Shown one piece after another: positions 1,532-19,898 of a DNA stretch of 21,722 bases (position 1 is the stretch's first letter; every line of letters begins with the position of its first letter). Below the pieces are notes generated by a model. It was given only the letters and a program-made list of their open reading frames with translations. It was not told where the DNA came from and searched no databases. Source of the DNA: a virus (lineage: Duplodnaviria > Heunggongvirae > Uroviricota > Caudoviricetes); IMG/VR virus record IMGVR_UViG_2778261217_000005; one strand, given 5' to 3'. The position numbers and the translations under genes are program-made.

Positions 1532-1741
1532 TTAATTTGAATACAATGCAATTCTCGAGGACTGAAGTTTCTCGCAATTAAAATTTATCAGTTTTACTTT
1601 CTGCTCTCTGGAAACACCTGCTTCTTTTTTACCTGAGAGCATTTTTTCGCATTCTGATTTCGTTAGTTTAGATTTTGAATATCTTGTCCAGTTAGTAGGA
1701 GTGCCACCTTCCTTTTCAATAGTGGCGGTAATTTTATACAT
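1532..1741 (-). CDS. ydaC: Small Rac prophage protein YdaC-like (69 aa)
   Basis: Start chosen at MYKITATIEKEGG with GGAGGTG SD 5 nt upstream; the longer ORF start would lie inside ralR. Confidence 0.6.
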   Translation of the reverse strand: MYKITATIEKEGGTPTNWTRYSKSKLTKSECEKMLSGKKEAGVSREQKVKLINFNCEKLQSSRIALYSN

Positions 1742-2794: not shown

Positions 2795-5387
2795 TTGCAT
2801 ATTCCTTAGCCCAGCGGGGCAGTGATAATGTCTTAATAGCTGGCCATTCATCGGTATTCAGGCAGTCAGACAGGGTTCTCAGATTGCGGTGATATTCCTG
2901 TTGACCTGCCAGTTTTGCTTCTTCGCCCATCATGAAAATTTCAACCGGATAACGTCCGCATTCAATAGTTGTGCTGGCAACCAGAAAAACGAAAGTTGGC
3001 TGCACTCCAAACTGTGCTTCATAACCGTCACTGTAGAATGCATCCTGAACGTGATAGCGGTAGTCGTAATAAGCGGTTTTGAATCGTTGAATATCCGCCG
3101 TAGTTTTCACGTCCATGATCCAGTGAAATTCAGGGATAATTTTGTCCGGACGGCACCGACACAAAATTCCTGTTTCAGGATCTTCCCAGTAAATTGATGA
3201 TTCAGCGTGTCCGGCGCTTTCAACAAGCCATTGCCCCAGCGGCAAAGCCATAACGCTTTGATACATGAGTTCAATTTTCCGGCCTTCTTCCGCAGTGATA
3301 ACCGTTTTTCCTGTGCTTGCGCATTCCATCAGAAACGCTTTCTCTTCTTCTTTTCCGGCGTTTGTACGGCGGTTAAATTCAGGTGCTACGATAAAGCGGT
3401 TACTGAATTCTTCCGGTTCAAGTACCCGGCAGTGGAAAGCGGTTCCTAAATCGAGCGTTTTTGTCTTTGTGGTGTCCACGGGGGCATTTTTACGCCACAA
3501 ATATAGTGCCGGAGTATCAGCAATGTCATCGAGCTGAGACTTACTGACACCGGGACCCGCGTGGTAATTCTCATTCGAAATTCCGTAATAAATACCTGGC
3601 TCTATGTCTTCTACGATTACGGGATCTGCGACTTCGCCAGTTTCATCACTGCAATCGCGATGCGGATCGCTGCCAGCATTCTCATTGTGCGGATGTTCAG
3701 CGCCTTCCATTTCCTCCGGATCATTTTCCTTAGCTTCAACCTGACTCTCTTCATCGAATGTTTCCTGGTATGTTGCGTCGCCCATCACCGCACCACAGTC
3801 AGGGCAGTTATCCCCGCCAGTCTGGCCGCAGGCATTGCAGGCTATTTCCGGTTCCTGTTGCACTACTGGCTCAGGTTGATTCATATCCGGGCTGGTTTTT
3901 TCCGTTTCTGGCTGGTTCTGGTACACACAATCGCGAGTCTGGATCCCCTTTACCCATTTCGGATCGTTCGGGTCGCTAATTCCGTCAACAAATTCACCAC
4001 GTGATGCAGCAAGCAATTTATCGGCATCGACAGGATTTTTTGATGGAATGTTTTTCCGGGCTTCATGGAGTTCTGCCCGCAGTTCCTGATATTTCGCATC
4101 AACAGAATTTACCTGTGACTGAGCATCCAGCGGCTGCGTGTCCTGATGATGTTCAGTTGCGTCCGGTTCCATTGTTTCAGCCTCTCCCTGTTCAACTGCC
4201 GTTGTTCCAGATGGTTGCGGTTTTTCTTCATCATCCTGTTTTCCTTCTTCTGTTACTCGCTGCGGCATCGGGGCAGAGGAGCGACCGCAGGCAATATCCA
4301 CGATTTCCGGATCAGGGTTGGCATGATCGGTTTCAGTCAGTACTTTGTTCAGATATTCAGTGACGTGCGCGGGGATGACCTCGATCCCAATTGGTGCTTC
4401 TTTTACGGACGCAACCACGATGGCGCGGGAATAATCCAGCCCGCCAGGCATGGTGATGAATTTGTCGCGGAAAACAGAAAAGGGCGGTTTATTTTCAGCG
4501 ATAATTTCCTCAATGCGTTTAGCGTGTGCCGGATGAAGGTTATAGATGTCCAGATCCATTGAACGGGCCAGTACGCCAGTGGCTACGTCGCGCGCCAGTG
4601 ACGTCAGATCGTGTACGAAACCTTCGCCGCGATCGGTGAGGTTTCCGCCGCCAGCATTAGCACCGGAAGCCGTGCGAGTGATGTGTGAAACACGATTACC
4701 CTTCATCCACTCTTTTGTCAGCAGTCCTCGATCGGTGTAGTCAGCGTTCAGGTATGCTTCGAAAAAAGCAGTTATCAGTCCCAGGTTTGAATTACCAGGA
4801 TTAGGGAAAACTTTGTCAGTGTCACGAACCAGTTTGTGGAGTTCGCGAATTTCCAGCGGGTCGAGCAGGCTGGTTTTGTGGGAAACAGCCAGGGCAGTAA
4901 CAGCCGGTAGTTCTTCAGCCCGAGCAATGTGTAATGCCTGGAGTCCGTCGCGTGAAACGTGCGTTACCGGTTTTTCGCTGCCGTGTTGAGCAAGCCAACG
5001 AATGGGCAGTTCCTGGCCAGAAATTGGGAGTAGCATATTCTCCTCAATCTCAGTCATGTCTTCGCCGTTGACGTTGGTATTGCCTTGATAGTGAGCGTTG
5101 TCTGGTGCTGCTCCCGGTTTTAGTTCCCATGTCATGGAGTCTTTGCTGAGTTGATAGCGTTCACTCCAGGTAAAATCGATCTCACCTTCAGCGGGCAGGT
5201 CATTAACGACAGGAAAATTCGTGGCAACAGCTTTAAAATAGCTGCTCAGTTTTTTACCTGACTTAACGATCAGGTAGTCCAGAGTGGCACAGGTCGATTC
5301 AAAATCGTCGCTTGCCCACAGGACGACGTCAGGTTCACCGGATGATTTTTTCGCTTTCCGTAACAGGAAGAGTGGTTTTGTGCTCAT
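2787..5387 (-). CDS. recE: RecE exonuclease VIII (866 aa)
   Basis: 866-aa ORF with acidic low-complexity middle region and C-terminal nuclease region; classic recE-recT pair. Confidence 0.9.
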
Positions 5388-6230: not shown

Positions 6231-6651
6231 AATTATCTCCATTTTTACAAATGAACTTTGTTGATGCGGTGCCTGGTGCCTCCAGGTGACTGCAACCAGT
6301 TAACAATTACAGTCGGCTTTCCCACCCAAACCAATAAGGACTAACATGACTTTTAACTGTGCCACGTGCGCTTAGCCGCATTCACCGCATCACAAAATTC
6401 ACTTTAAAAAGGGCGGACATCAGCCGAACTTCAAGAAAAAAACTGATGCCGCCAGGACTACACACAGCAATGTCGTTATTTACAACCGGAGGCGCACTCC
6501 CACCATTTAAATTTAACAGACAAGACCGACTCTTTATGGATATCGGAAATGCGCCTTCGTGTTGCGCCCAGTTTTATTTCACCACCTCCGGGCTTCGGTG
6601 GTTTCTGCTATACCCCTACAGCGAGAATATTGAATTAATCCAAATAATGGA

Positions 6652-14416: not shown

Positions 14417-15016
14417 ATGGCGCATATACAACTGGTCAAACAAACTTCTTCTGGTTTACTTCTCCCGGCGACGCCGGAGAGTTGTGATTTTCTGCATCAA
14501 ATTAAAATAGGCGAGTGGATACACGCTGATTTTAAGCGTGTGCGTAACTACGCATTCCACAAGCGTTTTTTCAAACTCCTGCAACTGGGATTCGATTACT
14601 GGACTCCGGTTGGTGGGGCGATCACGCCTCGCGAACGAGAACTGCTGTCTGGTTTCGTTGATTACCTGTGCGAATCAGTTGGTCGGGAACACACGCCAGC
14701 CCTGAGTGATGCCGCAGAGCAATATCTGAATACAGTGGCGACACGCAGAACCCGGGATACGGCATTGCTAAAGTCGTTTGAGGCTTTTCGCGAGTGGGTA
14801 ACCATTCAGGCTGGATTTTACACCGAACATTTTTATCCGGACGGTAGCCATGGGCGTCGGGCGAAATCCATCGCTTTTGCGAATATGGACGAAACCGAGT
14901 TTCAGCAGGTTTATAAATCTGTTCTGAATGTGCTGTGGAACTGGATTCTGTTCCGTAAATTTTCCTCTCTGGAACAAGTCGAAAATGTGGCCGCGCAGCT
15001 GCTGGAGTTTGCGTAA
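14417..15016 (+). CDS. DUF1367-family phage protein (YbcN-like), 199 aa
   Basis: Nin-region position; resembles recalled DLP12 YbcN family. Confidence 0.65.
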   Translation: MAHIQLVKQTSSGLLLPATPESCDFLHQIKIGEWIHADFKRVRNYAFHKRFFKLLQLGFDYWTPVGGAITPRERELLSGFVDYLCESVGREHTPALSDAAEQYLNTVATRRTRDTALLKSFEAFREWVTIQAGFYTEHFYPDGSHGRRAKSIAFANMDETEFQQVYKSVLNVLWNWILFRKFSSLEQVENVAAQLLEFA

Positions 15017-15306
15017 TGGTGGATTTACGTAAAGCGGCGCGGGGGCAGATGTGCACCGTCAGAATTCCTGGCTACTGCAATCACGATCCGGAAACGTCTG
15101 TGCTGGCGCATTACCGACTGGCGGGAACGTGCGGAACAGCGACAAAACCACACGATATGCAGGCGGCGATTGCCTGTAGCTCATGCCACGATCTAATCGA
15201 CGGGCGGGTAAAAACCAGCGATTACACCAAAGAAGAATTACGCCTGATGCATGCAGAAGGTGTTTTTCGCACACAAGAAATCTGGAGAAAGGAGGGATAT
15301 TTGTGA
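15016..15306 (+). CDS. DUF1364-family putative nuclease (YbcO-like), 96 aa
   Basis: MVDLRKAARGQMCTVRIPGYCNHDPETSVLAHYRL...ACSSCHD; resembles recalled YbcO; ATG overlaps upstream TAA. Confidence 0.7.
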   Translation: MVDLRKAARGQMCTVRIPGYCNHDPETSVLAHYRLAGTCGTATKPHDMQAAIACSSCHDLIDGRVKTSDYTKEELRLMHAEGVFRTQEIWRKEGYL

Positions 15307-15845
15307 TTTACCCAACGAATACAGGAAAAAGCGGAGAACACCTTCGTCTCGCCACGCTGGAAAGTGTCTGGATTCAGGGCAAACTGCGTATGTGGGGGCG
15401 CTGGTCGTATATTGGCGGTGGCAGGTCAGGAAATATGTTCAATCAGTTGTTGGCATCCAAAAAATTGACGAAAACAGCCATCAATGAAGCCCTGCGCAGA
15501 ATGAAAAAAGCGGGAATAGAGAAAGCTGAGCTGGAAGCGTTTTTGAGAGAGATGATCAACGGCAAGCAAAAGAGCTGGCTGGCGCATTGTACTGATGCAG
15601 AGGCGTTATGTATTGATCGAGTCATAAGTGAGGTGCTGGCAGAGCATCCAGGATTGATTAGCGTCCTTCGGCAACGGTATGAGGGGCGGGGGATGACCAA
15701 ACGCAAAATGGCTGAATTGCTAAATGATGCACACCCAGAGTGGTGTTTTAGCACATGCGAAAAGCGAATTGCTAATTGGTTGGCCGTTGCTGAGTATGCG
15801 CTATACATTCCCATGCGAGAATCATTCGCTCAAAAAACGGCTTGA
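15303..15845 (+). CDS. Putative late antiterminator Q-like protein (180 aa, GTG start)
   Basis: Immediately precedes tRNAs and lysis genes; AGGAGG SD 7 nt before in-frame GTG overlapping ybcO-like stop; the annotated ATG at 15183 would overlap the upstream gene by 124 nt. Confidence 0.5.
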   Translation: MIYPTNTGKSGEHLRLATLESVWIQGKLRMWGRWSYIGGGRSGNMFNQLLASKKLTKTAINEALRRMKKAGIEKAELEAFLREMINGKQKSWLAHCTDAEALCIDRVISEVLAEHPGLISVLRQRYEGRGMTKRKMAELLNDAHPEWCFSTCEKRIANWLAVAEYALYIPMRESFAQKTA

Positions 15846-15870
15846 TTTTTTACGCATAAACTGCTTCAAT
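15842..15870 (+). promoter_or_regulatory. Candidate late promoter (TTGATT -N17- TTCAAT) overlapping Q stop
   Basis: Hexamers read directly; analogous to lambda PR' position; weak -10. Confidence 0.3.
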
Positions 15871-15930
15871 TTTGCTACGCTTCGCAAAGCTGTATCGCGT
15901 GGCGAATCAAGCGCAATTAAACTTTAATAG

Positions 15931-15960
15931 AACCCGCATCGAGCGGGTTTTGTTGTTTTT
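15931..15960 (+). terminator. Rho-independent terminator (AACCCGC-atcga-GCGGGTT + T-run), candidate tR'
   Basis: 7-bp perfect GC-rich stem followed by TTTTGTTGTTTTT. Confidence 0.6.
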
Positions 15961-16197
15961 GTGGTGTGATATAAGAAACGACATTTAATAATTGCCTTCA
16001 AAATAAATTTGTTTATATATTGTCGCGTATATTTTAAATGAAGGTGAAATGTTCACATAAAATAAAAATACATAAATAAATTTGCATAACTTGACGCAAA
16101 GTGTTGTTGCGATTGGAATATTAAATCGTATTATCGAAAACGGTTCTGAGGGGGAACTCTTCTTTGATCGGTGATATCGCTCCCCTGAAGAACCAAT

Positions 16198-16273
<76 letters not shown>

Positions 16274-16276
16274 TAT

Positions 16277-16351
<75 letters not shown>

Positions 16352-16715
16352 GCATTTGAAACAAGTCTTATTGTATTGCGGCACTGGCGTATTTTTTATT
16401 ACGTGGGAGCAGGTTGTTTTGGAAAAGCATTCTGTTCTCTGGCTATGATTTGAGGCCAGGTGTAGCCTCAGTGCTGATTTTTTTACGACAGCAGAATGGT
16501 GCATTGTCGGTGGAGATTTTGTATTTCCTGGCAGGGTCGGTGATGCATCATTCTGGTGTTGTAAAAGCACCACAGAGGTGTTCCTCAGTGCGAGGGTGGT
16601 TTATATAGTGGTTTAGCGGGGAATCACAATATTTGTTGTAGGGACAGATATTTCGGGAGGCACCCGACACCTCGATTTTTATTACAATTAAAATGATTTA
16701 TCTTATACATTGACC

Positions 16716-16741
16716 AACCGCCATATCTGGCGGTTTTTTTT
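16716..16741 (+). terminator. Rho-independent terminator (AACCGCCA-tatc-TGGCGGTT + T8)
   Basis: 8-bp stem followed by eight T; read directly. Confidence 0.6.
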
Positions 16742-17129
16742 ATACCTGCATCAGACAAAAAAAGACACAAGCATCCAGGAATACTCGTGGGACAACGTCC
16801 TTTAGATAGCAATTTGCGAGAGGGTGAAAAGTAGCGCGGTCGTCGGATTAAGACCGCGGGACAAAGTCCATGAAGAATAATAAGTATTGGCCCCCTTCTG
16901 GGGATATGTTCATACTACTAAGCTTCAGAAGTGGTTTAAATCATCAAATTAACCTTAATTTTCGATAAGTCTTATTTCATTTCTTTGCGCCACATCTGGC
17001 GCGCATCAAATAACGCCACGCAAAGGGCATCTGCGGATGCCGGTGCTTTTGACGGGGTGTTTTTTACGGGCCGCTGGTGGCCATTTTTTGTTTCCGTTAC
17101 ACAGCGCCCGCATCTGCGAGGTGGGGGTT

Positions 17130-17345
17130 ATGAAATCCATGGATAAGTTAACAACGGGTGTCGCCTATGGCACCTCCGCAGGCAGTGCTGGCTACTGGTT
17201 TTTACAGCTGCTCGATAAAGTCACGCCCTCACAGTGGGCAGCAATAGGTGTGCTGGGTAGCTTGGTATTTGGCCTGCTGACGTACCTGACAAACCTTTAT
17301 TTCAAGATTAAAGAAGATAAGCGCAAGGCTGCGAGAGGTGAATAA
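17130..17345 (+). CDS. Class II pinholin, phage-21 S-like (71 aa) with dual-start motif MKSM
   Basis: [45 protein letters not shown]... closely resembles recalled S21/EssD; GAGGTGGGGG SD. Confidence 0.85.
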
Positions 17346-17842
17346 TGCCTCCATCATTACGAAAAGCCGTTGCTGCTGCTATTGGTGGCGGAGCAATTGC
17401 TATAGCATCAGTGTTAATCACTGGCCCAAGTGGTAACGATGGTCTGGAAGGTGTCAGCTACATACCATACAAAGATATTGTTGGTGTATGGACTGTATGT
17501 CACGGGCATACAGGAAAAGACATCATGCTCGGTAAAACGTATACCAAAGCAGAATGCAAGGCACTCTTGAATAAAGACCTTGCCACTGTCGCCAGACAAA
17601 TTAACCCGTACATCAAAGTCGATATACCGGAAACAACGCGCGGCGCTCTTTACTCATTCGTTTACAACGTGGGTGCTGGCAATTTCAGAACATCGACGCT
17701 TCTTCGCAAAATAAACCAGGGCGATATCAAAGGCGCATGTGATCAGCTACGTCGCTGGACATATGCTGGCGGTAAGCAATGGAAAGGTCTCATGACTCGT
17801 CGTGAGATTGAGCGTGAAATCTGTTTGTGGGGTCAGCAATGA
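17345..17842 (+). CDS. SAR endolysin, T4-lysozyme-like (165 aa)
   Basis: N-terminal Gly/Ala-rich signal-anchor-release segment; catalytic triad positions E35, D44, T50 present as in phage 21 R; ATG overlaps holin stop. Confidence 0.85.
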
Positions 17843-18303: not shown

Positions 18304-18440
18304 AATCTTAACTACAATATGATTTATTTTGATGATTGTTTCATAAGGAACAGTGAAGTAAGATCTAAGAGGAGTTAAATTTTATACAGTATAATCATAA
18401 TATTGCAGCAAGGTGGTTATAATTGAAAGAATATTTAGAT

Positions 18441-19898
18441 ATGAATACATCTCATGTAAGAGTTGTTACTCATATGTGTGGGTTCCTGGTTTGGCTCTAT
18501 AGTCTTTCAATGTTGCCACCAATGGTTGTAGCATTGTTTTATAAAGAAAAAAGCCTGTTCGTTTTCTTTATAACCTTCGTTATATTTTTTTGCATTGGTG
18601 GCGGAGCGTGGTATACAACTAAGAAATCTGGCATTCAATTACGTACCCGTGATGGGTTTATTATAATTGTAATGTTTTGGATTTTGTTTTCTGTTATTAG
18701 TGCATTCCCTTTATGGATTGACTCAGAACTTAATTTAACGTTCATTGATGCTCTTTTTGAAGGGGTTTCTGGAATAACAACAACAGGAGCAACTGTAATT
18801 GATGATGTTAGTTCATTACCTCGGGCATATTTGTACTATCGGTCACAGTTAAATTTTATAGGTGGTTTAGGAGTTATTGTTCTGGCGGTTGCTGTATTGC
18901 CATTATTGGGTATTGGTGGTGCAAAGCTTTATCAGTCAGAAATGCCGGGGCCATTTAAGGATGACAAACTCACTCCCCGCCTGGCCGATACGTCACGGAC
19001 ACTGTGGATAACTTATTCTTTATTAGGTATTGCTTGTATTGTCTGTTATAGACTTGCAGGAATGCCTTTGTTTGATGCTATTTGTCACGGGATTTCCACA
19101 GTTTCGCTTGGTGGTTTCTCAACTCATAGCGAGAGTATCGGATATTTTAATAACTATTTGGTTGAGCTGGTGGCTGGTTCTTTTTCCCTGCTATCGGCTT
19201 TCAACTTCACTCTTTGGTATATTGTTATTAGCAGGAAAACGATAAAACCTTTAATCAGAGATATTGAACTTCGTTTCTTTCTGTTAATAGCCTTAGTGGT
19301 GATCATTGTTACCTCTTTCCAGGTCTGGCATATAGGTATGTATGACTTGCATGGAAGTTTTATTCATTCGTTTTTTCTTGCCAGCTCCATGCTCACTGAT
19401 AATGGTTTAGCTACGCAAGATTATGCAAACTGGCCCACGCACACGATAGTGTTTTTGCTGTTGTCAAGTTTCTTTGGGGGATGTATAGGTTCAACTTGTG
19501 GTGGAATTAAGTCACTTCGATTTCTTATACTTTTCAAACAAAGCAAACACGAGATAAATCAGCTTTCTCATCCCAGAGCGTTGTTGAGTGTAAATGTAGG
19601 AGGGAAGATAGTTACAGATCGTGTAATGAGGTCTGTATGGAGTTTCTTTTTTCTTTATACTCTCTTCACGGTGTTTTTTATACTGGTGTTAAATGGTATG
19701 GGATATGATTTTCTTACATCATTTGCAACAGTGGCTGCATGTATTAATAATATGGGATTAGGTTTTGGGGCTACTGCATCGTCATTCGGAGTGCTTAATG
19801 ACATTGCAAAATATTTAATGTGCATAGCTATGATTCTTGGTCGCCTTGAAATTTATCCTGTTATTATATTGTTTTCAGGTTTTTTTTGGCGCTCCTAA
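18441..19898 (+). CDS. trkG: TrkG potassium uptake transporter (485 aa)
   Basis: MNTSHVRVVTHMCGFLVWLYSL...; multi-pass membrane protein with repeated GG selectivity-like motifs; start at ATG 18441 (track ORF begins at upstream TTG). Confidence 0.85.
   Translation: MNTSHVRVVTHMCGFLVWLYSLSMLPPMVVALFYKEKSLFVFFITFVIFFCIGGGAWYTTKKSGIQLRTRDGFIIIVMFWILFSVISAFPLWIDSELNLTFIDALFEGVSGITTTGATVIDDVSSLPRAYLYYRSQLNFIGGLGVIVLAVAVLPLLGIGGAKLYQSEMPGPFKDDKLTPRLADTSRTLWITYSLLGIACIVCYRLAGMPLFDAICHGISTVSLGGFSTHSESIGYFNNYLVELVAGSFSLLSAFNFTLWYIVISRKTIKPLIRDIELRFFLLIALVVIIVTSFQVWHIGMYDLHGSFIHSFFLASSMLTDNGLATQDYANWPTHTIVFLLLSSFFGGCIGSTCGGIKSLRFLILFKQSKHEINQLSHPRALLSVNVGGKIVTDRVMRSVWSFFFLYTLFTVFFILVLNGMGYDFLTSFATVAACINNMGLGFGATASSFGVLNDIAKYLMCIAMILGRLEIYPVIILFSGFFWRS

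What the first reader, a model, noticed from the sequence alone, without database searches (positions are those of the whole stretch)
16352..17129. Empty cargo slot upstream of holin packed with two hairpin families
About 780 bp between the tRNAs and the holin has no convincing ORF but contains family A palindromes CCAYATCTGGCG (16721-16733 forming a T8 terminator, and 16991-17003) and family B GCATCTGCG (17028-17036 within a GGCATC-tgcg-GATGCC hairpin, and 17110-17118 just before the holin SD), plus a CGCGGTC...GACCGCG hairpin near 16845. In Stx phages this slot holds the toxin genes. Here it may be a scar of cargo turnover, or repeated regulatory structures controlling late-gene readthrough.
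Basis: seen in the sequence. Interest (0 to 1): 0.5.

Follow-up and report, generated by a model that had tools for sequence, protein, structure and literature searches.

The report
Structured RNA leader with hidden sRNA
The 778 bases between two phage tRNA genes and the lysis genes of this Rac-like E. coli prophage are not an empty slot: they form a conserved, heavily folded non-coding RNA leader holding a divergent member of the prophage STnc100/PasD small-RNA family and several transcription terminators.

Summary
The "two hairpin families" are not real families. The family A similarity is confined to this lineage. The two family B copies lie in different mosaic modules, and 9-mer repeats are at chance level.

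The interval is a conserved non-coding module. It occurs in 380 of 5426 complete E. coli genomes. It follows tRNA-Gly(tcc) in 112 of 117 instances and precedes a holin in 130 of 133. It folds as plus-strand RNA: 96-98% of predicted pairs are kept across 43-49 distinct homologs (40-53% in slid controls), with 28 compensatory pairs.

Positions 16574-16674, the AU-rich linker and the T8 terminator (16716-16741) resemble an sRNA gene of the STnc100/PasD family. Rfam scores it below threshold (27.3 against 47 bits). A covariance model built only from canonical members finds it at 38.6 bits, above the validated PasD sRNAs (31.5).

At least three further terminator-like structures lie before the holin, presumably read through only by Q-modified polymerase.

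The cargo idea is partly right. Relatives carry TerB and DUF3927 genes inserted at about 17003-17008, and Stx phages carry toxin genes in this region. This is a new variant of a known kind, of moderate interest.

The parts
16198..16351 (+). tRNA-Thr(tgt) 16198-16273 and tRNA-Gly(tcc) 16277-16351. These form the 5' part of the mobile module to which the interval belongs.
   Evidence: ARAGORN and Rfam tRNA, 72 and 66 bits. tRNA-Gly(tcc) lies within 120 nt upstream of the D1-D2 module in 112 of 117 instances.
16352..16483 (+). D1, the 3' trailer of tRNA-Gly. It is a three-way junction closed by GGCACUG (16381-16387) / CAGUGCU (16469-16475), followed by GA and U7 (to 16483). It is a possible first terminator.
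   Evidence: The fold of 16378-16486 is -43.2 kcal/mol, z = -5.6. Helices 2-5 are 95-100% paired with 4 compensatory pairs. The closing stem is kept in L002b and L011, where the interior differs.
16482..16565 (+). D2a, a long imperfect hairpin of about 35 pairs with many G.U pairs. It is a candidate double-strand RNase (RNase III-type) processing site just 5' of the sRNA core.
   Evidence: Inverted repeat I1. Fold -40.4 kcal/mol, z = -7.2. Helices 6-7 have 35 pairs, 98.5-99.7% paired, 3 compensatory. There are 303 + 49 G.U cells against 11 C.A cells, so it is a plus-strand RNA.
16557..16565 (+). TGtTGTAAA, an extended -10-like element ending about 8 nt before the first paired base of the core. 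It is a candidate promoter belonging to the sRNA itself.
   Evidence: Read from the sequence. Canonical STnc100 units carry TGtTAAAAG, or TTGACx-17-TAAAtT, at the same distance from helix P1. This is an inference and has not been tested.
16574..16674 (+). Core of an STnc100/PasD-family RNA. P1 is AGAGGUG/CACCUCG. P2 is CCUC-AGUGC-GAGG. P3 is GUGGUUU/AAAUCAC. P4 is AAUAUUUGU/ACAGAUAUU. P5 is CGGG-AGGCA-CCCG.
   Evidence: Rfam RF02076 gives a full-length match over 16548-16745 at 27.3 bits, E = 7e-4, below the gathering score of 47. Model R1, built from 56 canonical cores only, gives 38.6 bits, E = 1.3e-8, over its full length. Helices 8-13 are 97-100% paired, with compensatory changes in P1 (UA<->CG in 23 sequences) and P4 (GC<->AU in 15, CG<->UA in 10).
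16675..16715 (+). AU-rich, unpaired linker between the core and the terminator. In PasD the seed lies in the corresponding stretch.
   Evidence: Unpaired in the consensus fold. It is variable among homologs. The PasD seed position is from 10.64898/2026.05.13.724894 and the supplement of PMC8550237.
16716..16741 (+). It would be the 3' end of the proposed sRNA of about 170 nt.
   Evidence: Terminator scan. Fold -12.4 kcal/mol, z = -5.4. The stem is invariant and the loop variable in 49 of 49 homologs (helix 14). It is retained in L010, L011 and L013, where the core is replaced by a different cassette.
16758..16789 (-). Hairpin CACAAG/CUCGUG next to an A7 run. Read on the minus strand this is a terminator-like site convergent with the T8 terminator.
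   Evidence: minus-strand site 16789->16766 plus a T run. Helix 1 has 2 compensatory pairs. The strand is ambiguous: 13 G.U against 9 C.A cells.
16790..16983 (+). D3a, a chain of conserved hairpins: GGAC/GUCC at 16790-16800; CGCGGUC/GACCGCG at 16835-16858; GGAC/GUCC at 16859-16869; CCCC/GGGG within 16888-16906; and an AU-rich helix at 16928-16983. Function unknown. It is replaced by an unrelated non-coding stretch of about 700 nt in L282-type phages.
   Evidence: Helices 2-11, including UA<->CG in the CGCGGUC stem (13 sequences) and CG<->UA in the CCCC stem (10 sequences). Replacement shown.
16870..16968 (+). 32-aa ORF ([32 protein letters not shown]). Rejected as a gene.
   Evidence: A 1-nt deletion shifts the frame in the L311 group, in L175, L170 and L006, and in L298. 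Substitutions elsewhere are mostly non-synonymous. No Pfam match.
16987..17002 (+). It marks the left edge of the cargo insertion point.
   Evidence: Fold -10.8 kcal/mol. Helices 12-13 have 3 compensatory pairs (GCGUC/GACGC, GCGCU/AGCGC). TerB and DUF3927 genes are inserted just 3' of it in L011 and L012.
17008..17065 (+). Long hairpin of 22 pairs whose 3' strand runs into U6 (17060-17065). It is terminator-like.
   Evidence: Fold -23.3 kcal/mol, z = -3.4. Helix 14 is 97.9% paired with 4 compensatory pairs. There are 157 G.U against 7 C.A cells. This stretch is shared with phiP27 upstream of its holin.
17069..17089 (+). GGCC-GCUGGU-GGCC followed by U6. It is a weak terminator-like hairpin that always lies immediately before the lysis cassette.
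   Evidence: Fold -7.5 kcal/mol, z = -0.9, so weak on its own. Followed within 150 nt by a holin in 130 of 133 instances: 87 P27-type, 43 S21-type.
17094..17129 (+). Leader specific to the S21-type holin module. It holds family B copy 2 and the Shine-Dalgarno sequence GAGGUGGGGG.
   Evidence: Shared at 90% with phages cdtI, mEp460 and Ayreon upstream of their S21-type holins. Absent where the holin is P27-type. No significant fold.
17130..17345 (+). Holin of the phage 21 S type (dual start, MKSM). This is the first protected gene downstream of the interval.
   Evidence: Pfam PF04971, 121 bits.

Best explanation
The interval is a conserved, mosaic, non-coding RNA leader. It is transcribed on the plus strand together with the two tRNAs, inside the late operon of a Rac-like lambdoid prophage. 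It has three functional layers.

1. A tRNA trailer (D1) and a long duplex (D2a). These probably serve as processing or termination structures.

2. A small-RNA unit of about 170 nt (about 16572-16741). It consists of a compact STnc100/PasD-type structured core, an AU-rich single-stranded linker and a strong Rho-independent terminator. By analogy with PasD it would be an Hfq-associated, base-pairing sRNA. It would be made in the lysogen from its own weak extended -10 promoter, or by processing of the tRNA transcript.

3. A chain of hairpins ending in two tandem terminator-like structures directly before the holin. These would keep tRNA/sRNA transcription and stray read-through out of the lysis genes, so that only polymerase modified by the Q-like (DUF1133) antiterminator reaches them.

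What is shown:
- conservation of the interval as a unit;
- linkage to tRNA-Gly on one side and to holins on the other;
- absence of coding;
- plus-strand RNA structure with covariation;
- family resemblance of the core;
- module boundaries that fall at hairpins.

What is inferred:
- transcription start sites and processing;
- Hfq binding and targets;
- terminator efficiency;
- Q-dependent read-through.
For: Conservation and context:
- The 778 bp are found in 380 of 5426 complete E. coli genomes, and 215 carry at least 80% of it. It is also in phages vB_EcoS-683R6 and SerU-LTIIb.
- It is linked to different Q types, different tRNA arrays and two holin types.
- tRNA-Gly(tcc) lies upstream in 112 of 117 instances. 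A holin lies downstream in 130 of 133.

Non-coding:
- Annotated ORFs differ in frame between homologs.
- The small ORF is frameshifted in several lineages.
- There are no TerB or DUF3927 remnants.

RNA structure:
- Region 16352-16745: 112 pairs, 98.2% of cells paired against 42-53% for slid controls, with 10 pairs and 81 cells compensatory.
- Region 16742-17095: 91 pairs, 96.0% against 40-46%, with 18 pairs and 114 cells compensatory.

Strand:
- G.U cells against C.A cells are 911:27 and 371:51 in the two regions.
- The minimum free energy is -262.7 kcal/mol on the plus strand and -212.3 on the minus strand.

sRNA family:
- Rfam STnc100 aligns over the full model at E = 7e-4.
- Model R1, built without any sequence of this subtype, gives 38.6 bits, E = 1.3e-8. 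The experimentally validated PasD1 and PasD2 get 31.5 bits.
- Shared elements are P1 (GGUG/CACC), the P2 loop (GYGCG) and the invariant CGGG-AGGCA-CCCG hairpin.
- Canonical units score 52-165 bits in Rfam, and in the scanned loci that also held tRNAs (L107, L109, L028) they lie downstream of the tRNA array. 40 of 47 canonical cores with an upstream same-strand tRNA lie within 1.5 kb of it.
- The promoter-like element sits at the same distance from P1 as in canonical units.

Literature:
- PasD is a 172-173-nt, Hfq-dependent sRNA confirmed by Northern blot and RIL-seq (PMC8550237).
- PasD and STnc100 share an origin and lie between Q and the holin/lysozyme genes (10.64898/2026.05.13.724894).

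Terminators.
Against: - The Rfam curated threshold is not met (27.3 against 47 bits).
- The loop-to-strand pseudoknot I found in canonical cores is not evident in this subtype, which has a hairpin (P3) there instead.
- No expression, 5'-end, 3'-end or Hfq data exist for this locus.
- The proposed -10 element lacks the consensus A2 and T6 and overlaps the 3' arm of D2a. Its conservation could be due to the RNA helix alone.
- The structures tested were derived from the same alignments. This inflates the 'cells paired' measure, although the compensatory counts also exceed every control.
- The sequences are related to each other, so the counts are not independent events.
- Three of the four terminator-like sites are weak or atypical: a junction rather than a simple hairpin at D1; -7.5 kcal/mol and z = -0.9 at 17069-17089.
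- The location of the late promoter for the DUF1133-type Q is unknown.
Confidence: 0.62

Rival explanations
1. The conserved hairpins are mainly DNA-level 'boundary' or linker sequences at which lambdoid phages recombine to swap modules. On this view the RNA folding is incidental, or serves only as generic termination.
For: Module junctions coincide with hairpins:
- The T8 terminator is retained while the core upstream of it is replaced (L010, L011, L013).
- D3a is swapped for an unrelated stretch of about 700 nt between the T8 terminator and the 17008-17065 hairpin.
- TerB and DUF3927 genes are inserted right after the 16987-17002 hairpin.
- The terminal hairpin precedes two unrelated holin types.
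Against: - Compensatory changes and the strong excess of G.U over C.A cells are properties of a plus-strand RNA, not of duplex DNA.
- The interiors of the modules are as well conserved and as well paired as their edges.
- The core belongs to a known RNA family.
- The two views are compatible. This one cannot be the whole story.
Confidence: 0.15
2. Part of the interval (about 16758-16930) encodes a minus-strand small RNA, antisense to the late operon as PasA is in E2348/69. It would end at the hairpin plus U run at 16789->16758.
For: - A minus-strand terminator-like site lies at 16789->16766 with a T7 tail. Its hairpin covaries (helix 1), and the A/T run is kept in divergent homologs.
- For three D3a helices the strand test is neutral or slightly favours the minus strand.
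- PasA lies on the strand opposite to the holin, in the equivalent position.
Against: - No promoter-like site was found on the minus strand in 15800-17400.
- There is no sequence similarity to PasA beyond the terminator-like 3' end.
- Over the whole of D3, G.U cells outnumber C.A cells 371 to 51.
- The plus and minus alignment folds are about equal for this part, so nothing positively favours the minus strand.
Confidence: 0.12
3. The interval is the decayed remnant of a former cargo gene (a pseudogene or scar) with no present function.
For: - The same locus holds cargo genes in relatives (PMC12370729).
- PGAP calls 'hypothetical proteins' in some homologs.
Against: - Those calls are in different frames, run through the terminator and have no family match.
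- There is no similarity to TerB or DUF3927.
- A sequence decaying neutrally would not keep 96-98% of 203 base pairs with 28 compensatory pairs across lineages that are 78-94% identical.
Confidence: 0.04

Closest known systems
STnc100 (Rfam RF02076), a prophage-encoded sRNA family of Salmonella, E. coli and Stx phages
   Same: - A multi-helix core closed by GGUG/CACC, a 5' hairpin with a GYGCG loop, and the invariant CGGG-AGGCA-CCCG hairpin one base before the 3' strand of P1.
- An AU-rich linker followed by a Rho-independent terminator.
- Total length about 170-200 nt.
- Location in the late region of lambdoid phages, downstream of tRNAs and upstream of the lysis genes.
   Different: - It scores 27.3 bits against a gathering score of 47.
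- The junction reads UUCGGGAGGCACCCGAC rather than CACCGGGAGGCACCCGGC.
- Where canonical members form a loop-to-strand pseudoknot, this element has a P3 hairpin.
- It is fixed downstream of tRNA-Gly, a trailer of about 130 nt and a long hairpin of about 85 nt.
- Among species-representative genomes the subtype was seen only in Escherichia.
PasD1/PasD2 of EPEC E2348/69 (EcOnc13 in EHEC): Hfq-dependent sRNAs of 172-173 nt
   Same: - Same family by model R1: 31.5 bits for PasD, 38.6 for this element.
- Same size from the start of P1 to the terminator.
- Same position between the Q gene and the holin/lysozyme genes (10.64898/2026.05.13.724894).
   Different: - No detectable primary-sequence similarity outside the short conserved blocks.
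- A different linker, and therefore presumably a different seed and different targets.
- PasD follows a DUF3927 gene, not tRNAs.
- PasD has experimental support (PMC8550237). This element has none.
The PR'-tR' late leader of lambda and Stx phages (6S RNA, StxS), read through by Q
   Same: A non-coding, terminator-bearing stretch between Q and the lysis genes. Downstream genes depend on antitermination. This comparison rests on established knowledge of lambdoid late regulation, and I recalled it rather than tested it.
   Different: - Here the leader is about 780 nt and has at least four terminator-like sites.
- It follows tRNA genes.
- It contains a separate sRNA unit.
- The Q-like protein is of the DUF1133 type, and its promoter and qut site are not defined.
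3' external transcribed spacer sRNAs of tRNA operons (for example 3'ETS-leuZ)
   Same: A structured RNA directly 3' of the last tRNA of an array, ending at a stem followed by a U run (D1, 16352-16483).
   Different: No evidence that D1 accumulates or binds Hfq. There is no sequence relation. The comparison is from memory only.

Membership tests
STnc100 (Rfam RF02076) | Score at or above the curated gathering threshold (47 bits) | tested here: not met
   27.3 bits, E = 7e-4 to 3e-3, full-length alignment over model positions 1-206. No hit at the gathering threshold.
STnc100 (Rfam RF02076) | Core architecture: P1 GGUG/CACC closing helix, 5' hairpin with GYGCG loop, invariant CGGG-AGGCA-CCCG hairpin next to the 3' strand of P1 | tested here: met
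   All three are present at 16574-16674. P1 and P4 covary within the subtype.
STnc100 (Rfam RF02076) | Recognised by a covariance model built from accepted members only | tested here: met
   R1 was built from 56 canonical cores; the canonical units scanned with Rfam score 52-165 bits. It finds 16574-16674 at 38.6 bits, E = 1.3e-8, over the full model. PasD1 and PasD2 score 31.5 bits.
STnc100 (Rfam RF02076) | Pseudoknot between the loop of the penultimate helix and the stretch 3' of the first hairpin. This is my own observation on canonical members, not a published criterion. | tested here: not met
   44 of 57 canonical representatives have at least 5 contiguous pairs. In this subtype the stretch forms hairpin P3 instead, and by eye I found no comparable complementarity.
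STnc100 (Rfam RF02076) | AU-rich linker and Rho-independent terminator 3' of the core | tested here: met
   Linker 16675-16715, terminator 16716-16741.
STnc100 (Rfam RF02076) | Lambdoid prophage context between the antiterminator and the lysis genes, often after tRNAs | tested here: met
   for the window. and 10.64898/2026.05.13.724894 for the family.
Hfq-dependent base-pairing sRNA (PasD-like) | Discrete stable transcript, Hfq binding, seed pairing with targets | not testable with these tools
   No transcript or interaction data are available for this locus. Only the sequence hallmarks are seen (U8 tail, AU-rich linker).
Intrinsic (Rho-independent) terminators | GC-rich stem-loop followed directly by a U tract on the transcribed strand | tested here: met
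   16716-16741 is a strong site. 17026-17041, 17069-17089 and 16450-16471 are weaker. Eight sites were found against 1.8 +/- 1.4 in shuffles. Termination efficiency was not testable.
Cargo (moron) slot of lambdoid late operons | An accessory gene inserted between the antiterminator/tRNAs and the lysis cassette | tested here: not met
   No gene or gene remnant is present in the window. Relatives L011 and L012 carry TerB and DUF3927 genes at the point equivalent to about 17003-17008.
Protein-coding gene or pseudogene | An open frame, or a single degraded frame, conserved among homologs | tested here: not met
HK022 put-type cis-acting antiterminator RNA | RNA of about 70 nt with two stems that binds the transcribing polymerase | tested here: inconclusive
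   A text search of the main text of PMC9378689 for three conserved motifs of this core, written four ways as DNA or RNA (GGGAGG, CACCCG, GGTGAA/GGUGAA), found nothing. I did not see the put sequence itself, so no proper comparison was made. The architecture differs (five helices, about 100 nt).

The most novel reading that the evidence does not exclude
The STnc100-type core may not be merely the 5' body of a trans-acting sRNA. It could be a cis-acting element of the nascent transcript that controls what happens at the terminators or Rho sites downstream of it. It might do so by modifying the polymerase (put-like), by blocking Rho, or by stabilising the RNA.

In favour:
- The same fold sits, without a terminator of its own, in the 5' leader of kilR in the early-left operon of this prophage (6265-6389, minus strand) and of K-12 Rac.
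- It is a compact pseudoknotted fold with an invariant hairpin, which is unlike typical Hfq sRNAs.
- In the late region it stands upstream of a run of terminators.

Against:
- PasD accumulates as a species terminated at its own terminator and pairs with targets on Hfq (PMC8550237).
- Canonical units look like self-contained genes with their own promoter and terminator.
Probability: 0.1. Interest if true: 0.8.

Novelty: new variant of a known kind. Interest (0 to 1): 0.4.

Why it matters
If the prediction holds, three things follow.

1. About 4-7% of sequenced E. coli carry an unannotated prophage sRNA of the PasD/STnc100 family. Its linker, and so probably its seed, differs from that of PasD. 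It could tie Rac-like prophages into host regulation.

2. Curated thresholds miss a sizeable part of this family. Elements that fall below the Rfam gathering score include this late-region element, the validated PasD sRNAs, and the kilR-leader element. The kilR-leader element occurs in about 74% of E. coli genomes, including K-12.

3. The locus offers a compact model for how lambdoid phages insulate lysis genes from tRNA, sRNA and moron transcription. It also shows where cargo genes enter: at hairpin boundaries. This is the same region that holds Shiga toxin genes in Stx phages.

Tried and rejected
- **Coding gene or pseudogene.** Rejected. The PGAP ORFs in L007, L008, L010 and L013 are in different frames. 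The 32-aa ORF is frameshifted in several lineages. There are no Pfam hits.
- **Two hairpin families.** Rejected as families.
- **Direct similarity to PasA, PasD or the STnc100 consensus by BLAST.** The only match with a low E-value is the 18-nt CGGGAGGCACCCG block (E = 0.002); PasA gives nothing better than two 14-nt matches at E = 0.05, one in the terminator and one in the holin coding region.
- **Rfam at gathering threshold on the window and 15 loci.** Only tRNAs and RalA were found.
- **Anti-terminator pairing.** The 3' strand of P4 (16645-16656) can pair with the 5' arm and loop of the terminator (16718-16729; inverted repeat I3). By my reading of the alignments this is not conserved in L006, L008 or L009.
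- **An sdi-like structure in front of the holin start.** Not significant, z = -0.3.
- **Scan of species-representative genomes for the subtype junction.** 39 of 40 hits are chance matches in GC-rich genomes. Only Escherichia ruysiae is real.
- **HK022 put.** No motif in common in the text of the structural paper. This is a weak test.
- **Not done:** a six-frame protein homology search of the interval, a reciprocal covariance model built from this subtype, and target prediction for the linker.
Full report
**Setting**

The window is a Rac-type lambdoid prophage. Its landmarks are as follows.

| Coordinates | Feature | Source |
|---|---|---|
| 1557-1735 | RalA RNA | |
| 14417-15016 | DUF1367 protein | |
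| 15016-15306 | YbcO | |
| 15303-15845 | DUF1133 protein, which also passes the Pfam cut-off for Phage_antitermQ (27.4 bits) | |
| 15925-15955 | terminator | |
| about 15956-16197 | AT-rich stretch with promoter-like sites | |
| 16198-16273 | tRNA-Thr(tgt) | |
| 16277-16351 | tRNA-Gly(tcc) | |
| 16352-17129 | the interval in question | - |
| 17130-17345 | phage-21-type holin | |
| 17345-17842 | lysozyme | |
| following | spanin, then trkG | |

**Check of the observation**

The motifs exist. CCAYATCTGGCG is at 16721-16732 and 16990-17001. GCATCTGCG is at 17027-17035 and 17110-17118. CGCGGTC/GACCGCG is at 16835-16858. The stated positions were off by one or two bases. No convincing ORF is present.

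The grouping into two families does not hold.
- Across homologs the two 'A' hairpins keep GC stems but have unrelated loops.
- The two 'B' copies lie in different mosaic modules.
- Exact 9-10-mers recur four times in the interval, so one such repeat is at chance level.
- The GGCATC/GATGCC pairing needs a 6-nt insertion that 14 of 43 distinct homologs lack. It is not the minimum-energy fold even in the window.

**Distribution and mosaic structure**

The interval occurs in 380 of 5426 complete E. coli genomes, from 99.5% down to about 77% identity, and 215 genomes carry at least 80% of it. It is also present in two deposited phages.

It is found with several different partners:
- DUF1133-type or PF03589-type Q genes;
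- with or without a DNA methylase;
- tRNA arrays of one to four genes;
- either an S21-type or a P27-type holin.

In loci fetched from IMG/VR by three pattern scans, two linkages stand out. The 5' module (D1-D2) follows tRNA-Gly(tcc) in 112 of 117 cases. The terminal hairpin is followed by a holin in 130 of 133 cases.

Modules are exchanged at hairpins:
- L010, L011 and L013 have a different, shorter cassette in place of 16560-16715 but keep the T8 terminator.
- L282-type phages replace 16745-17010 with an unrelated non-coding stretch of about 700 nt.
- L011 and L012 carry TerB and DUF3927 genes inserted between 17002 and 17008.
- The last 36 bp or so go with the S21-type holin.

**Not coding**

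PGAP's 'hypothetical proteins' in L007 and L008 map to different frames of the window and run through the terminator. The 32-aa ORF at 16870-16968 is open in many homologs. It is frameshifted in the L311 group, in L175, L170 and L006, and in L298, and its substitutions are mostly non-synonymous. There is no Pfam match and no remnant of TerB or DUF3927.

**RNA structure**

Consensus folds were computed on 49 distinct homologs of 16352-16745 (alignment A2) and 43 distinct homologs of 16742-17095 (alignment A3). The pair counts are below.

| Measure | A2 (16352-16745) | A3 (16742-17095) |
|---|---|---|
| Predicted pairs | 112 | 91 |
| Cells forming a standard pair | 98.2% | 96.0% |
| Same, 3' partners slid 1-3 columns | 42-53% | 40-46% |
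| Pairs with change on both sides | 10 | 18 |
| Same, slid controls | 2-8 | 2-7 |
| Cells with change on both sides | 81 | 114 |
| Same, slid controls | 6-26 | 5-41 |
| Covariation score | 0.132 | 0.145 |
| Same, slid controls | 0.04-0.06 | 0.03-0.05 |

Caveats: the structures come from the same alignments, and the sequences are related to each other.

The strand is plus. Cells that pair only on the plus strand (G.U) outnumber those that would pair only on the minus strand (C.A) by 911:27 and 371:51. The plus strand also folds 50 kcal/mol better than the minus strand: -262.7 (z = -5.7) against -212.3 (z = -4.8).

Individual elements:
- D1, a three-way junction followed by U7: -43.2 kcal/mol, z = -5.6.
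- D2a, a long hairpin: -40.4, z = -7.2.
- The core: -35.9, z = -3.4.
- The T8 terminator: -12.4, z = -5.4.
- The long hairpin 17008-17065: -23.3, z = -3.4.
- The last hairpin: -7.5, z = -0.9. It is weak on its own but universally placed before holins.

**The sRNA unit**

Rfam's STnc100 model aligns end to end with 16548-16745 at 27.3 bits (gathering score 47; E = 7e-4 in a search of the interval, 3e-3 in a 3.5-kb search).

The invariant block CGGGAGGCACCCG led to 141 canonical cores in 120 IMG/VR loci. These score 52-165 bits in Rfam, occur up to five times per locus, and often follow tRNA arrays.

Canonical cores and the window's element share three features:
- P1, the closing helix (xxGGUG/CACCxx, covarying at the outer pairs);
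- a first hairpin with a GYGCG loop;
- the CGGG-AGGCA-CCCG hairpin one base before the 3' strand of P1.

A covariance model (R1) was built from 56 canonical cores only. Its scores are below.

| Target | Bits | E-value |
|---|---|---|
| Window 16574-16674, full model length | 38.6 | 1.3e-8 |
| Homologs of the window's element | 19-43 | - |
| PasD1 and PasD2 of E2348/69 | 31.5 | 1.3e-6 |

PasD is a Northern- and RIL-seq-validated, Hfq-dependent sRNA of 172-173 nt. It starts at P1 and ends at its terminator (PMC8550237, supplementary Table S6). Zhu, Shabalina and Storz (10.64898/2026.05.13.724894) conclude that PasD and STnc100 share an origin and lie between Q and the holin/lysozyme genes.

From about 16572 to 16741 the window's unit is about 170 nt long. 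TGtTGTAAA (16557-16565) lies where canonical units have TGtTAAAAG, or a TTGACx-17-TAAAtT promoter. This is suggestive only.

Two differences from canonical members justify 'variant' rather than 'member'. The score is below the curated threshold. A P3 hairpin stands where canonical cores form a covarying loop-to-strand pseudoknot.

Among species-representative genomes the subtype junction is real only in Escherichia ruysiae.

**How it most likely works**

This section is inference, built on the results above and on the established model of Q-dependent late transcription in lambdoid phages.

- The tRNAs, D1, D2a and the sRNA unit are transcribed on the plus strand.
- In the lysogen, transcription from the tRNA and sRNA promoters stops at D1/U7 or at the T8 terminator, giving tRNAs and an sRNA of about 170 nt.
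- D2a, a duplex of about 35 pairs, is a plausible RNase III site that frees the sRNA from longer transcripts.
- The hairpin chain and the tandem terminator-like sites at 17008-17065 and 17069-17089 stop residual read-through before the holin.
- After induction, polymerase modified by the DUF1133/Q-like protein reads through all of them.

A candidate late promoter is TTGACG (16091-16096)-17-TGGAAT (16114-16119). It has a second -10-like TATTAT at 16129-16134, which could be a sigma-dependent pause site (read by eye). This has not been tested.

**Rivals**

- DNA-level recombination boundaries. This is compatible with the best explanation and partly true, but it cannot explain the G.U asymmetry and the covariation.
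- A minus-strand sRNA ending at 16758. There is a terminator-like site, but no promoter was found and the strand evidence is neutral.
- A decayed cargo gene. Rejected.

**Verdict**

The 'families' are not. 'Empty' is wrong.

The interval is a conserved structured leader that carries a divergent STnc100/PasD-type sRNA unit and terminators, at a locus where relatives insert cargo. The kind is known and this variant is new. Interest is moderate.

The most interesting loose end lies outside the finding. The same RNA fold sits in the kilR leader of Rac, including in K-12, and is unannotated there.

Noticed in passing
window 6265-6389 (minus strand); K-12 MG1655 NC_000913.3 1,418,264-1,418,388 (minus strand; L359 2265-2389): A second STnc100-family core lies in the early-left operon. 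R1 gives 67.2 bits in the window and 59.8 bits in K-12. Its last hairpin is CCUGG/CCAGG, a compensatory change from the canonical CCGGG/CCCGG. It has no terminator of its own. By my reading of the sequence, it starts just after the terminator of the KilS sRNA homolog and ends about 35 nt before the kilR start. It is unannotated in RefSeq. The 158-bp stretch occurs in 4007 of 5426 E. coli genomes, up to 8 times per genome.
   Followed up: partly
loci L018-L137 (IMG/VR), canonical STnc100 cores: Canonical cores show a covarying pseudoknot. The loop of the helix just 5' of ACCGGGAGGCACCCGG pairs with the stretch just 3' of the first hairpin. Examples are CCAGTC/GACTGG, CTGGTG/CACCGG, AAGGTTG/CAACCTT and AGACTGACA/TGTCAGTCT. 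44 of 57 representatives have at least 5 contiguous pairs; the mean is 5.7 against 4.2 for shuffled loops. I do not know whether this has been described.
   Followed up: partly
loci L028, L096, L109, L115 and others: STnc100 units occur in tandem arrays of up to five or six copies spaced about 250-500 nt apart, often directly after tRNA arrays. Many units have a clear TTGACx-17-TAAAtT promoter ending about 7 nt before P1.
   Followed up: partly
window 16091-16134: The promoter-like TTGACG-17-TGGAAT is followed by a second -10-like TATTAT a few bases into the presumed transcript. It lies upstream of a long hairpin (by eye, about 16144-16194) and tRNA-Thr. It could be the late promoter and sigma-dependent pause site for the DUF1133/Q-like antiterminator.
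   Followed up: no
L002 (phage SerU-LTIIb, KU052038.1) 1122-2424 and 3028-4127: The tRNA-spacer-holin module is duplicated in tandem in this LT-IIb toxin phage. The second copy of the spacer is shorter (565 nt) and lacks the D3a part.
   Followed up: no
L013 (NZ_CP019280.1) 1334-2031: An IS1 element is inserted between the DUF1133 gene and the tRNAs. In the same locus the STnc100-like core is replaced by a different short cassette, while the T8 terminator is kept.
   Followed up: no
window 1557-1735 and 18423-19898: There is a RalA antitoxin RNA at 222.9 bits, and trkG lies directly after the spanin genes. Together with kilR and ydaE these identify the element as a more complete relative of the K-12 Rac prophage. 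From my own knowledge of its published gene order, K-12 Rac lacks the Q-tRNA-holin-lysozyme part.
   Followed up: partly
window 16645-16656 and 16718-16729: The 3' strand of P4 can pair with the 5' arm and loop of the T8 terminator (12 nt, 83% complementary). This would be an anti-terminator conformation. By my reading of the alignments it is kept through wobble pairs in L001 but not in L006, L008 or L009, so it is probably fortuitous.
   Followed up: partly
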